This document shows positions 16,701 through 40,198 of a stretch of 64,000 nucleotides of DNA, one piece after another. This stretch comes from the human T2T-CHM13v2.0 reference genome, Homo sapiens, in assembly GCF_009914755.1 (NCBI RefSeq), contig NC_060938.1; one strand, written 5' to 3'. Positions within the stretch are counted from its first letter, which is position 1, and every line of letters starts with the position of its first letter. The translations under genes were made by a program, and so were the position numbers. Below the pieces are notes generated by a model. It was given only the letters and a program-made list of their open reading frames with translations, had not been told where the DNA came from and did no database searches.

Positions 16701-19220
16701 GTCTCTAAGGACTTGCTTTACGAATCTGGGTGCTCCTGTCTTGGGTGCATATATATTTAGAATAGTTAGCTCTTCCTGCTGCATTGATCCCTTTACCATT
16801 ATATAATGGCCTTCTTTGTCTCTTTTGATCTTTGTTGGTTTAAAGTCTGTTTTATGAGAGATTAGGATGGCAACCCCTGCTTTTTTTTTTTTTTTTGCTT
16901 TCCATTTGATTGTTAGATCTTCCTCCATCCCTTTATTTTGAGCCTATGTGTGTCTTTGCACAGAGATGGGTCTCCTGAATACAGCACATTGATGGGGCTT
17001 GACTCTTTATCCAATTTGCCAGTCTGTGTCTTTTAATTGGGGCATTTAGCCTATTTACATTTAAGGTCCATATTGTTAGGTGTAGATTTGATCCTGTCAT
17101 TATGATGTTACCTGGTTATTTTACCTGTTAATTGATGCAGTTTCTTCATAGCATTGATGTTCTTTACAATTTGGCAGGTTTTTGCAGTGGCTGGTACCAG
17201 TTGTTCCTTTCCATGTTTAGTGCTTCCTTTAGGAACTCTTGTAACACAGGCCTGGTGGTGACAAAATCTCTGAGCATTTGCTTGTCTGTAAAGGACTTTA
17301 TTTCTCCTTCATTTATGTTGGCTGGATATGAAATTCTGGGTTGAAAATTCTTTTCTTTAAGAATGTTGAATATTGGCCCCCACTCTCTTCTGGATTGCAG
17401 GGTTTCTGCAGAGAGATCCGCAGTTAGTCTGATGGGCTTCCCTTTGTGGGTAACCTGACCTTTCTCTCTGGCTGCCCTTAACATTTTTTCCTTCATTTCA
17501 ACCTTGGTGAAATTGACAATTATGTGTCTTGGGGTTGTTTTTCTCGAGGAGTATCTTTGTGGTGTTCTCTGTATTCCCTGAAATTGAATGCTGGCCTGCC
17601 TTGCTAAGTTGGGAAAGTTCTCCTTGATAATGTCCTAAAGAGTGTTTTTCAACCTGGTTCCATTCTCCCTATCACTTTGAAGTACAACAATCAAATGTAG
17701 AATTTGTCTTTTCACATAGTCCCATATTTCTTGGAGGCTTTGTTCGTTTCTTTTTACTCTTTTTTTTCTAAACTTGCCTTCTCACTTTATTTCATTAATT
17801 TGATCTTCAATCACTGATATCCTTTCTTCCATTTGATCAAATTTGCTATTGAAGCTAGTGCATGCCTCCCGAAGTTCTCGTGCCTTGGTTTTCAGCTACA
17901 TCAGGTCACTTAAGGTCTTCTCTACACTGTTTATTCTCATTAGCCATTCGTCTAACCTTTTTTCAAGGTTTTTAGCTTCCTTGTGATGGGTTAGAACATG
18001 CTCCTTTAGCTCGGAGAAGTTTGTTATTACGGACCTTCTGAAGCCTACTTCTGTCAACTTGTCAAAGACATTCTCCATCTAGCTTTGTTCCATTGCTGGT
18101 GAGGAGCTGCGATCCTTTGGAGGAGAAAAGGCGCTCTGGTTTTTAGAATTTTCAGCTTTTCTGCTCTGGATTCTCACCATCTTTGTGGTTTTATCTACCT
18201 TTGGTCTTTGACGTTGGTGACCTACAGATGGGGTTTTGGTGTGGATGTCCTTTTTGTTGATGGTGATGCTATTCCTTTCTGTTTGTTAGTTTTCCTTCCA
18301 GGAGTCAGGTCGCTCAGCTGCAGATCTGTTGGAGTTTGCTGGAGGTCCACTCCAGACACTGTTTCCTTGGGTATCACCAGCAGAGGCTGCAGAACAGCAA
18401 ATATTGCATAACAGCAAATATTGCTGCCTGATGCTTCCTCTGGAAGCTTCATCCCAGAGGGACACCTGCCTGTATGAGGTGTCTGCTGGCCCCTACTAGG
18501 AGATGTCTTTCAGTTAGGCTACACAGGGGTCAGGGACTCACTTGATGATGCAGTCTGTCCATTCTCAGAGCTCAAACGACGTGCTGGTAGAACCACTGCT
18601 CTCTTCAGAGCTGTCAGACAGGGACGTTTAAGTCTGCAGAATTTTCTCCTGCCTTTTGTTCAGCTATGCCCTGCCCACAAAGGTGGAGTCTGTAGAGGCA
18701 GTAGGCCTTGCTGAGCTGTGGTGAGCTCCGCCCAGTTCAAGCTTCCTGGCCACTTTGTTTACCTACTCAAGCCTCAGCAATGGTGGATGCCCCTCCCCCC
18801 GCCAGGCTGCAGCCTGGCAGGTTGATCTCAGACTGCTGTGCTAGCAGTGAGCAAGGCTCCATGGGTTTGGGACCTGCCAAGCCAGGCATGGGAGAGAATC
18901 TCCTGGTCTGCCAGTTGCTAAGACTGTGGGAAAAGCACAGGATTTGGGCAGGAATGCCCCGTTTTTCGAGGTACAATCTGTCACGGCTTCCCTTGGCTAG
19001 GAAAGGGAAATCCCCCAACCCCTTGCACTTCCTGGGTGAGGTGACGCCCCGCCCTGCTTCGACTCGCCCTCCATGGGCTGCACCCACTGTCCAACCCATC
19101 CCAATGAGATGAACTGGGTACCTCAGTTGGAAATGCAGAAATCACCTGTCTTCTGCGTCGGTCATGCTGGGAGCTGCAGAATGGAGCTGTTCCTATTCGG
19201 CCATCTTGGAACAGAGTCCC
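13797..19220 (-). mobile_element. L1PA (about L1PA6-7) with an intact 5' UTR, broken ORF1/ORF2 and no 3' end
   Basis: 5' ttccaagatggccgaataggaacagctcc including the YY1 site; ORF1 pieces at 17164-18078; ORF2 EN and RT pieces at 14429-16928 including the FADD motif. Ends abruptly at 13797 with no 3' UTR or poly-A. Confidence 0.93.
18780..19112 (+). other. L1 ORF0-like antisense ORF, 110 codons, open
   Basis: MVDAPPPARLQPGRLISDCCASSEQGSMGLGPAKPG resembles the L1HS ORF0 N-terminus as recalled (MAGAPPPASLPPCSLISDCCAS); Kozak gcaATGG; expression unknown. Confidence 0.75.
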
Positions 19221-19736
19221 AGTGATATTCTTAAAGTTAGACAAATAGTTATGGTTACAACAACTGGAACCCGGGATCCTTAACTCCCAGTCTGGTGTTC
19301 ATTTCACTATAGCATACTGCATCTCAAATCAATGTAAACATTATTCTTATAAAGCAAGTGCCTAGACGTGTTTGCATGTATAAAGTGTTTTCTGTTTTTC
19401 TATTTTGACTACCGATGAATTTTCTATTTTCTCTGGTCTGTCTTTTAGCCTATTACTATTTTCAGCTCCTATCTGCAAGTGAGGATTTTAAGGAACAAGT
19501 ATTCCACTGATAGGCATTCCTGGCATAACTATGGATGATAACATTTGTAAGACTAACATTTATGATTCATTTTCTTTATTTGTAAAATGCATGACATGAA
19601 TAAATTACAACTTCACACTTGGTACAGTATCAACTTCTGTAAGGCAGATTAAAATATTCTGGCACCATTCCCTGAAATTCCCAATCTTTTTCTATATACA
19701 ATGGAAAAACTATGAGCTTTTTTTTAATAGAAAGGA

Positions 19737-38178: not shown

Positions 38179-40105
38179 ACTCTCTTCCTTCACCTGTAAA
38201 ATGAACATAACAGTGCTCTACTAGATTTTCATGGGATTAAGTGAGATTATATATGTGATTCATACAGTGTTAATAAACATTTACTGTATCATTGGGGCTA
38301 GCCACCAGAAAAACTCAGCCCTTGTGCTATCTCTGATAATTAACCACTATTAGTGCACTATTCAAAATCCCAGCAAAGTCATTCATGTAGATTCTGAGCT
38401 GATGTATAGCTTACATTTTGATCTACACCCCCCAGTGCCAGGACAAACTACTTCCAGATAAGGAACCATCCCATGAGGTTTACTGTGATCCTGGACAAGC
38501 ACCACTGGGCCCACTGCTAGGGACTATATAGCTTCAGGTTCATGTGAGAGTTAATGTTATATATGTGAATACAAACTAGACCCTATGGTCCCACCACTTT
38601 GCTTGTCTGACATAGTATGGCCCAAACCTCCAGTATAGCTCCAGAATAGCTTCAACATCCTAGGAGTATCTGAAGGTAGAATCTGCTAAGTTCTCCCTTC
38701 CAATTCAGGTGCCAAAAGGGAAGAGTCAATATCACTATAGGATATAGTGATATTCAGAATAGAAATTTGAACATCAGATGGTCCGAATATAAATTTAAAA
38801 ATCTCTCTACACTTACTTCTAGGTCCTAGGATCTGGAAATCAGAGACCCTAGGTGGCTAAGAAGGTCAAAGATAAAAAACACAGACTCACTTATCCAGCT
38901 CCGGAAACAATGAAATTTTATAAATTATACAAATACTTCATGTAAATCAAGTCCTATATTACTTGTCTTGGTTTCTTTTCTTCCTTCCTCTTCCTCTTTT
39001 TTTAACCTCATTTATTTTTGCTTTCCTTTTTTTAAATTAGCAATAAAGACAGTTTCTGACTAGAGGATTTCAGGAATTGGTTATGACTCCTGAAACTTTT
39101 ATTCTTATTGGCACTAGTTCAAATTTCTGAGCCAAAAGTGATTTTCATCCAGAGTAGTCTGAATACTTACTTCACACAAAAGGTTACTAGTGCTCTTCTT
39201 ATAGGCACTAAATTATTTCAATTAATGAAGCCAAAATCAAAGGCTAAAACTCAAATGGAATGACTGGGATATTCCTTCCTTTTTTTTTAAGCTTTCTCTT
39301 CTTAAGAAAAAAACAACTTTAGGATTAAAAAATGATGCATTCATTGTAGAAAACGTGGAAATTTTGGGAAAAGTAGAGCAAAGGGAATAAAAAACATAAA
39401 TCTAACATTCTGAAGTAATAAATGCTTTATATTTTCATGTATGTTCTTTCCTTTTCTACTGATATATACACATATATCTTAATACAGTTAAGACTATATG
39501 CTGCAGATTTGACTTTGCATGTTGTAAAAATATGTATCATAGGAATTTTCCTATGTCAATGAATATTCTTCATAAATATTACTTTAGCCTCCATAATATT
39601 TTACCTTAAGAATCTATCATTTCTTATTTAAGTACCTATATTGTTGATAGTTTGGTTTCTTTCCATTTTTTCTATTGTAAGCAACTGTGAAATAAACATA
39701 TACAGAAACATTTATCCATTTTCCTACGATAGATTTCTAGAAGTGAAACTACTAGGTCAATGGGTATGAAAACGTTTAAAGTTGGCTTTCCTTTTAAAGA
39801 AAATCATATTTGGGTTGTTAAAGGATTACTGACACATCAACTGAGCACATCTTTGATTACTGTATAGCACCTCATATTCAGATAATCTCTGCAAACATTG
39901 CCATGAATTGACTGAGTATAATCTTTTATTTCAGGCACCAGAATGCATCTCTTCTATCTCCTGTTTCTTGGGACAGAAATCAGGAGTTCTGACTGAGCCC
40001 ATTTACAAGCTGTGTCAGACAAGCACTCATGCCCATCTTGTTTATGACTGCCTGCTTACCCATTGCTCTCCATATTTACATTTTCCTTCTTTTCTCTTCC
40101 TTCAG

Positions 40106-40198
40106 ATGGAATGGGGCGAGTCCTTGCTCAAGATGTATATGCAAAAGACAATTTACCCCCCTTCCCAGCATCAGTAAAAGATGGCTATGCTGTCCGAG
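40106..40198 (+). CDS. GPHN: Gephyrin coding exon, 93 nt, phase 1-1: (D)[30 protein letters not shown]
   Basis: Long polypyrimidine tract ending ttcag, donor G|gtaaat, MoeA-family DGYAV motif. Confidence 0.98.

What the first reader, a model, noticed from the sequence alone, without database searches (positions are those of the whole stretch)
18780..40198. Extended L1 ORF0 runs through a splice donor in frame with gephyrin: predicted ORF0-GPHN E-domain fusion
Seen: the minus-strand L1 5' UTR carries a + strand ORF0-like frame from a strong-Kozak ATG (gcaATGG, 18780) that stays open for 110 codons. It crosses the donor-like site ctgg|gtgagg after 19035, which is 85 codons plus one G (phase 1). 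The next GPHN exon (40106) is phase 1, so G|AT GGA ATG rebuilds the native DGMGRV frame. A second donor-like site, gag|gtgacg after 19040, is phase 0 and would be in frame with exon 61261. Known: primate L1 5' UTRs have an antisense promoter and ORF0 can splice to host exons; L1HS ORF0 is about 71 aa, so it would stop before this donor. Inference: an internal promoter could make a gephyrin lacking the G domain, linker and the [13 protein letters not shown] segment that contributes to the glycine/GABA-A receptor pocket, possibly a non-binding or dominant-negative E domain.
Basis: partly seen in the sequence, partly recalled or inferred. Interest (0 to 1): 0.85.

Follow-up and report, generated by a model that had tools for sequence, protein, structure and literature searches.

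The report
Ordinary old L1 ORF0 inside gephyrin
The open frame is the usual antisense ORF0 of an old L1 retrotransposon sitting backwards in a gephyrin intron; it could in principle splice in frame to the next gephyrin exon, but the frame and splice site are shared by many sister copies and no sign of such a transcript was found.

Summary
There is an ATG at 18780 in a gcaATGg context, 110 open codons, a TGG|GTGAGG donor after 19035 in phase 1, and a GAG|GTGACG donor after 19040 in phase 0. GPHN exon 40106 enters in phase 1 and exon 61261 in phase 0.

None of this is specific to the locus. In 28 sister L1 copies, 25 keep the ATG, 10 stop after exactly 110 codons, 26 keep GT at the donor, and 10 keep ATG, open frame, GT and phase 1 together. 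The 110-codon ORF0 is therefore the family's inherited form, not an extension. ORF length alone is unremarkable: 18.6% of composition-matched simulated sequences carry an ORF at least this long. The element offers three donors in three different phases, so an in-frame fit to some exon is guaranteed.

No expression was found. GPHN is absent from the EST-based list of L1 antisense transcripts. A brain and glioma survey lists one GPHN chimera, from a different L1. L1s older than L1PA3 stayed silent after DNMT1 loss in neural progenitors.

ORF0-exon fusion is a known mechanism. This case is an untested prediction with a low prior. RNA data, ape orthologues and further supplements could not be examined.

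The parts
13797..19215 (-). Old L1PA element lying antisense to GPHN. It runs from the 5' UTR through most of ORF2 and lacks its last ~750 nt and poly(A). The RepeatMasker subfamily was not determined.
   Evidence: a sister element matches 19234-14179 at 90% and 14195-13797 at 92%; homology to 60 other copies ends at 19207-19241, mostly 19207-19220; the closest copies are 87-89% identical.
18780..19112 (+). L1 antisense ORF0: 110 codons, ATG in gcaATGg context
   Evidence: Homologous frames occur at many other loci. The ATG is shared by 25 of 28 sisters and the stop position by 10 of 28. No Pfam family matches.
18666..18695 (+). Nine-codon upstream ORF in the same frame, closed by TAG. It would lie in the leader of antisense transcripts that start further upstream.
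   Evidence: Read directly.
19033..19041 (+). Donor-like site TGG|GTGAGG, exon end 19035, phase 1 relative to ORF0
   Evidence: 6 of 9 consensus positions; U1 duplex -9.8 kcal/mol, the best GT site in the ORF and within the range of GPHN's own donors. GT is kept in 26 of 28 sisters and the same 9-mer in 13 of 28.
19038..19046 (+). Second donor-like site GAG|GTGACG, exon end 19040, phase 0
   Evidence: -6.7 kcal/mol, no G at +5. GT is present at this place in 13 of 28 sisters.
18968..18976 (+). Third donor-like site GAG|GTACAA, exon end 18970, phase 2
   Evidence: -5.7 kcal/mol. GT is present in 28 of 28 sisters.
9770..9907 (+). GPHN exon that the predicted fusion would omit. It encodes the start of the E domain (residues 318-348), including Asp327 and Phe330.
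40106..40198 (+). GPHN exon, phase 1 in and phase 1 out, with acceptor ...ttccttcag|AT. This is the predicted acceptor for donor 19035.
   Evidence: hub annotation.
61261..61380 (+). GPHN exon entering in phase 0. It would be in frame with donor 19040 only if two constitutive exons were skipped.
22009..22800 (+). The missing L1 3' end (22023-22764 plus an A-rich tail), in the opposite orientation, flanked by a 13-nt direct repeat

Best explanation
The + strand frame at 18780-19112 is the ordinary antisense ORF0 of an old, decayed primate L1 (L1PA) whose 5' UTR lies backwards in a GPHN intron. In this group of copies ORF0 was inherited as a 110-codon frame that already contained the GTGAGG donor in phase 1. 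This copy has kept the ATG, the frame and the donor by chance, as roughly a third of its sisters have. The donor is in frame with GPHN exon 40106 because both are phase 1. That is a one-in-three coincidence per donor, and it becomes certain once the three donors in three phases are counted.

The element most likely does nothing, or at most gives low-level, mostly unspliced antisense transcripts. An ORF0-gephyrin E-domain protein is possible on paper but unshown.

Shown: the sequence anatomy, the sharing across the family, and the absence from two transcript catalogues. Inferred: silence at this locus.
For: Anatomy.

Family property (28 sister copies chosen by DNA similarity). 25 of 28 have the ATG. 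10 of 28 stop after exactly 110 codons. 15 of 28 are open to the donor, 12 of them with ATG. 10 of 28 combine ATG, open frame, GT and phase 1. 26 of 28 have GT at the donor.

15,377 candidate loci, 150 scored. By my count of the table, 90 of the 149 non-self matches have no stop over the matched 103-110 codons.

18.6% of composition-matched simulations have an ORF of at least 110 aa.

the three donors fall in phases 2, 1 and 0.

CpG retention is ordinary (12 CpG against a sister median of 10; 5 of 28 sisters have at least 12). There is no sign of long-term germline hypomethylation.

Literature. ORF0 dates back to L1PA8, about 3000 loci exist, and donors inside it make fusions (passages). 57 of about 3200 genic ORF0 loci were seen fused. 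Only 2.9% of brain and glioma L1 chimeras are spliced at their 5' end. GPHN is absent from the EST catalogue supplements. The single GPHN chimera in the brain and glioma table comes from another L1. The three consecutive rows shown there run in coordinate order and skip the interval that holds this element. L1s older than L1PA3 were not expressed after DNMT1 loss in neural progenitors.
Against: The 19035 donor is a credible 5' splice site. Its U1 duplex energy of -9.8 kcal/mol is better than four of the five GPHN donors in the window.

The ATG has a strong context, and there is no in-frame stop between it and the GPHN stop.

Antisense promoter activity is reported for L1PA2-8, and 20.6% of L1PA7 elements gave chimeras in brain and glioma.

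Chimera production is coupled to host-gene activity, and GPHN is active in brain.

The hub table lists two RefSeq 'enhancer' features (18383-18912 and 18913-19442) exactly over this 5' UTR, so some assay saw activity there.

Both transcript catalogues have limited depth. Pluripotent cells, where ORF0 transcription is said to be enriched, were not covered. The original ORF0 paper and its list of 57 fusions are not held.
Confidence: 0.8

Rival explanations
1. The L1 antisense promoter fires in some context (pluripotent cells, tumours). The transcript splices 19035>40106 and is translated into 85 ORF0 residues joined to gephyrin from Asp349 onward. This E domain would lack residues 318-348 and could not hold glycine or GABA-A receptor loops. 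It might interfere with normal gephyrin.
For: The frame and phases are correct. The donor strength is credible. The mechanism is established for other ORF0 loci, some in neuronal genes. The omitted exon carries Asp327 and Phe330, and a review states that mutating Phe330 abolishes receptor binding. RefSeq 'enhancer' features lie over the 5' UTR (hub table).
Against: No junction, EST or chimera from this element was found in the two catalogues searched. The prior from the literature is low: 57 of about 3200 loci fused, and 2.9% of chimeras spliced. An element of this age is not derepressed by demethylation in neural progenitors. CpG decay is ordinary. All features are shared by the family. An E domain cut inside its first structural segment may not fold; this last point is inference and was not tested. 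No paper in the searchable library links GPHN with ORF0 or an L1 antisense promoter.
Confidence: 0.08
2. The L1 5' UTR acts as a cis-regulatory element (enhancer or bidirectional promoter remnant) for GPHN or the neighbouring lncRNA, without making any ORF0 fusion. The open frame is irrelevant.
For: The hub table lists RefSeq functional 'enhancer' features at 18383-18912 and 18913-19442, covering the 5' UTR. L1 5' UTRs carry known promoter activity on both strands.
Against: The assay and cell type are not given. Reads from a multi-copy sequence with thousands of relatives (6577 candidates) can be misassigned. CpG decay is ordinary. Nothing here tests enhancer activity.
Confidence: 0.12

Closest known systems
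L1 ORF0 and ORF0-proximal-exon fusion proteins (Denli et al. 2015, Cell 163:583). The paper is not held here. It is known through passages in papers that cite it.
   Same: An ORF on the antisense strand of a primate L1PA 5' UTR, downstream of the antisense promoter. It has a strong-context ATG and splice donors inside the ORF that can join host exons in frame. The L1 is antisense to its host gene.
   Different: The frame is 110 codons here, against the 70-71 aa reported for L1HS. There is no transcript or peptide evidence for this locus.
L1 antisense-promoter chimeric transcripts (LCTs): Criscione et al. 2016 (PMC4908685) and Pinson et al. 2022 (PMC9396940)
   Same: An intronic L1PA element with a 5' UTR, lying antisense to an expressed gene. 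This is the usual setting for LCTs. Another L1 (labelled L1PA7) in GPHN is listed as an LCT source in brain and glioma.
   Different: This element is in neither catalogue. Most LCTs are unspliced read-outs into the flank rather than exon fusions.
N-terminally truncated gephyrins from exonic deletions or irregular splicing in epilepsy, autism and schizophrenia. The cases are listed in Table 1 of PMC9206673. Their dominant-negative behaviour is recalled, not read here.
   Same: They would yield a gephyrin without an intact G domain.
   Different: Those variants arise from the normal promoter and keep the E domain whole. The predicted fusion would also lose E-domain residues 318-348 and gain 85 L1-derived residues.

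Membership tests
L1 ORF0 | Lies on the antisense strand of a primate L1PA 5' UTR | tested here: met
   18300-19215 is the 5' end of a minus-strand L1, and the ORF is on the + strand.
L1 ORF0 | Homology of start codon, context and peptide with the ORF0 frames of other L1 copies | tested here: met
   150 of 150 scored loci match at E <= 2e-43 with 68-78% identity; the ATG is kept in 25 of 28 sisters; the 10-mer around the ATG is identical to the window's in 23 of 28 by my count. The sisters were not compared with a named L1HS ORF0 sequence. The link to 'ORF0' rests on position and on the literature descriptions.
L1 ORF0 | Splice donor sites inside the coding sequence | tested here: met
   GT sites at exon ends 18970, 19035 and 19040, with U1 duplex energies of -5.7, -9.8 and -6.7 kcal/mol. 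This is at sequence level only; use in splicing was not tested.
L1 ORF0 | Length about 70-71 aa, as described for L1HS | tested here: not met
   110 codons. The same length is seen in 10 of 28 sisters, so it is a subfamily form rather than a disqualifier.
L1 ORF0 | Transcribed from the L1 antisense promoter and translated | not testable with these tools
   No RNA, CAGE or Ribo-seq data are available.
ORF0-host exon fusion / spliced L1 chimeric transcript | L1 antisense to the host gene, with a downstream host exon in frame with a donor inside ORF0 | tested here: met
   19035 (phase 1) fits 40106 (phase 1), and 19040 (phase 0) fits 61261 (phase 0).
ORF0-host exon fusion / spliced L1 chimeric transcript | Observed junction (EST, RNA-seq, long read) or junction peptide | tested here: not met
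   0 occurrences of GPHN in 10 supplementary files; one GPHN row, from another L1; no paper links them. This covers only two catalogues and main texts.

The most novel reading that the evidence does not exclude
In pluripotent or tumour cells this old L1's antisense promoter acts as an internal GPHN promoter. It yields a roughly 470-residue ORF0-gephyrin protein that starts at E-domain Asp349, cannot bind glycine or GABA-A receptor loops, and perturbs gephyrin assembly or molybdenum cofactor synthesis. That would be a catarrhine-specific gephyrin isoform born from a retrotransposon.
Probability: 0.03. Interest if true: 0.6.

Novelty: new member of a known kind. Interest (0 to 1): 0.2.

Why it matters
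If the fusion were real, it would be a primate-specific, retrotransposon-driven isoform of the main inhibitory-synapse scaffold. It would lack both the G domain and the receptor-binding residues, which would bear on GPHN-linked epilepsy and autism.

As it stands, the case mainly shows how easily an intact ORF0 produces an in-frame prediction. At least ten other copies among the 28 nearest sisters have the same ATG, frame, donor and phase. Any of them sitting antisense before a phase-1 exon would give the same prediction. Only transcript data can single out a locus.

A smaller point is useful for anyone scanning for ORF0 fusions. In this older group of L1 copies ORF0 is 110 codons long and contains the strong GTGAGG donor. 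The reviews read here give only the 70-71 aa L1HS form.

Tried and rejected
1. Locus-specific 'extension' of ORF0: rejected, because the sisters share it.

2. ORF length as evidence of coding: rejected by simulation and by the equally long ORF on the opposite strand.

3. Subfamily naming. The only RepeatMasker-labelled element I could reach is the L1PA7 in an upstream GPHN intron, fetched as L062. It matches this 5' UTR at only 66-83% in pieces and has a 72-aa ORF0-like frame. This element is therefore probably not of that type. The name stays open; by divergence and a length of about 6.2 kb my guess is L1PA4-6. I searched the Pinson supplements for its estimated hg19 end coordinate and found nothing. 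Either it is not in their list of L1s with a 5' UTR, or the held file is cut.

5. Pfam scan of ORF0: 0 families.

6. The bacterial promoter and terminator scan does not apply to a human locus and is ignored.

7. Earlier findings of this scan were not open.

8. The supplement of the autism L1 paper (PMC10303858), which names GPHN among genes with an up-regulated intronic full-length L1, could not be read. Which GPHN L1 it means is unknown.

9. Denli 2015 and Speek 2001 are not held.

10. The GPHN long-read splicing paper has no mention of alternative first exons or L1 among the terms searched.
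Full report
**Observation**

The + strand at 18780 reads gcaATGg. From there the frame stays open for 110 codons to a stop at 19110-19112.

- The site TGG|GTGAGG places an exon end at 19035. That is 256 nt from the A of the ATG, so 85 codons plus one G, phase 1.
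- GAG|GTGACG places an exon end at 19040. That is 261 nt, phase 0.
- Translating the annotated GPHN exons confirms their phases. Exon 9770-9907 ends ...EIINYR plus one G. Exon 40106-40198 gives AT then GMGRVLAQ.... Exon 51979-52034 ends in phase 0, and 61261 begins PTQTVMPG in phase 0.

**What the sequence is**

A DNA search of the window's own genome with 18700-19200 gave 6577 candidates. The 40 that were scored are 87-89% identical.

A full-length sister element aligns to the minus strand from 19234 down to 13797 at 90-92%. Homology to 60 other copies ends at 19207-19241, mostly 19207-19220. So 13797 to about 19215 is an old L1PA element lying antisense to GPHN, and the ORF lies on the antisense strand of its 5' UTR, about 435 nt from the L1 5' end.

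This matches the position and character of ORF0 as the literature describes it:
- a primate-specific antisense ORF dating back to L1PA8;
- about 3000 loci;
- donors inside the coding sequence that join proximal exons (passages read).

The original paper, Denli 2015, is not held. Pairwise identities of 87-89% to the nearest copies exclude the young L1HS-L1PA3 group. I could not obtain the RepeatMasker name. The one labelled element I could compare, an L1PA7 elsewhere in GPHN, is much more distant at 66-83% in pieces.

**Is it special to this locus?**

No. I aligned the 28 sister copies returned by the DNA search and looked at each unaltered. L029 gave no BLAST row and is not counted.

| Feature | Sisters (of 28) |
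|---|---|
| ATG at the homologous start | 25 |
| Stop after exactly 110 codons | 10 (8 with ATG) |
| Frame open up to the 19035 donor | 15 (12 with ATG) |
| GT at that donor | 26 |
| Same 9-mer TGGGTGAGG | 13 |
| ATG, open frame, GT and phase 1 together | 10 |

A six-frame protein search found 15,377 candidate loci. Of the 150 scored, by my count 90 of the 149 non-self matches have no stop over the matched 103-110 codons. That sample is biased towards well-preserved frames, so it is a lower bound on number, not a rate.

The 110-codon frame ending ...PMR is therefore the inherited form in this group of copies, not an extension that arose here. This copy is one of the roughly one-third that have not yet been broken.

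**Is it more than chance?**

- The length is not. 18.6% of 5000 simulated 916-nt sequences with the same dinucleotide frequencies contain an ATG-to-stop ORF of at least 110 aa in six frames, with a mean longest ORF of 87 aa. The opposite strand also carries a 110-aa ORF at 18767-19099. What identifies the frame as ORF0 is homology, not length.
- The in-frame fit is not informative either. The element thus offers phases 2, 1 and 0.

**Splice-site plausibility**

MaxEntScan was not available. As a crude stand-in I counted consensus matches and computed the duplex energy with the U1 5' end.

| Site | U1 duplex energy (kcal/mol) |
|---|---|
| 19035 | -9.8 |
| 19040 | -6.7 |
| 18970 | -5.7 |
| Five GPHN donors in the window | -1.2 to -11.1 |

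The 19035 site matches 6 of 9 consensus positions and is the best GT site within the ORF. It is a credible donor. The 19040 site lacks G at +5, and using it with exon 61261 would require skipping two constitutive exons, which is unlikely (inference). A nine-codon upstream ORF (18666-18695, same frame, read) would sit in the leader of transcripts that start further upstream.

**Expression**

No RNA data can be queried here, so I looked for the locus in print.

- GPHN does not occur in the main text or in the 10 supplementary files of the EST-based catalogue of 988 L1 antisense transcripts.
- The brain and glioma catalogue of L1 chimeric transcripts contains one GPHN row. It comes from an L1PA7 at hg19 chr14:66,991,223-66,997,639.
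  - I located that element in T2T within about 160 bp of where my offset predicted. It lies about 537 kb upstream of the present L1.
  - The three consecutive rows shown in the passage run in coordinate order. The row after GPHN is already in FAM71D/GARIN2, so no chimera is listed for the interval that holds this element.
- That paper also reports that 17% of L1PA1-7 elements with a 5' UTR give chimeras, that 20.6% of L1PA7 elements do, that only 2.9% of chimeras are spliced at the 5' end, and that activity follows the host locus.
- Criscione et al. quote 57 fused loci among about 3200 genic ORF0 loci.
- In DNMT1-knockout human neural progenitors only L1HS, L1PA2 and L1PA3 became expressed. 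Older L1s stayed silent even without DNA methylation.
- No paper in the searchable library couples GPHN or gephyrin with ORF0, an L1 antisense promoter, or L1PA4-7 in a relevant way.
- As an indirect test of long-term germline activity I compared CpG retention. This copy has 12 CpG in 18700-19200 against a sister median of 10 (range 6-15; 5 of 28 sisters have at least 12). That is ordinary decay.

Pointing the other way, the hub table lists two RefSeq 'enhancer' features exactly over the 5' UTR. The assay is not given.

**What the protein would be**

Exon 9770-9907 aligns to gephyrin chains in the PDB. The crystallised E domain (2fts and 19 further entries) begins at the M of MSPFPL, which is residue 318. 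The exon therefore encodes E-domain residues 318-348, and Asp349 spans the junction.

A review states that stacking of Phe330 with the receptor phenylalanine is the primary determinant of binding, that mutating Phe330 abolishes the interaction, and that Asp327 contacts the glycine receptor loop.

A fusion would carry 85 ORF0 residues and then gephyrin from Asp349. It would lack the G domain, the linker and these residues. Whether such a truncated E domain folds or dimerises was not tested. Dominant-negative action is inference from recalled work on G-domain-deficient gephyrins.

**Verdict**

This is an ordinary L1 ORF0 locus, correctly read. The mechanism proposed, ORF0 splicing to a host exon, is already known. 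This would be one more predicted member, with no expression evidence and a low prior.

My estimates:
- 0.8 that the locus is functionally silent in this respect;
- about 0.08 that a spliced fusion transcript exists at a detectable, reproducible level somewhere;
- about 0.03 that a protein with biological effect is made.

**Limits**

- No RNA-seq, CAGE or Ribo-seq data.
- No primate orthologues.
- Denli 2015 and its fusion list not seen.
- Further supplements closed.
- Donor scores are a crude proxy.

Noticed in passing
window 13797-19215 (-) and 22009-22800 (+): The L1 is split. The minus-strand piece stops inside ORF2. The missing ~750-nt 3' end, with an A-rich tail, lies 2.8 kb away on the opposite strand. 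It starts only about 10 nt further along the L1 sequence and is flanked by its own 13-nt direct repeat (22009-22021 and 22788-22800). The near-contiguity of the two break points looks like twin priming, but the 2.8 kb of non-L1 DNA between the pieces and the private target-site duplication do not fit the classical product.
   Followed up: partly
window 18767-19099 (-): The L1 sense strand carries an ATG ORF of exactly 110 aa that overlaps ORF0 almost end to end. Together with the simulation, this shows that the region is poor in stop codons on both strands.
   Followed up: partly
L062 about 3700-4930 (G000:C14:60736700-60737930), outside the window: Another antisense L1 in an upstream GPHN intron, labelled L1PA7 and 6417 bp long in the Pinson et al. 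supplement. It is the only GPHN element listed there as producing an L1 chimeric transcript in brain and glioma. Its ORF0-like frame is 72 aa.
   Followed up: partly
window 18383-19442: The hub table places two adjoining 530-bp RefSeq 'enhancer' features exactly over the L1 5' UTR and its flank. The assay and cell type are unknown, and mapping of a multi-copy sequence may be an issue.
   Followed up: no
window 2367-6820 (+), 31045-33852 (-), 46443-47070 (+), 54318-57002 (-): Further L1 fragments in the window match the sister element at 67-89% identity. None includes a 5' UTR.
   Followed up: no
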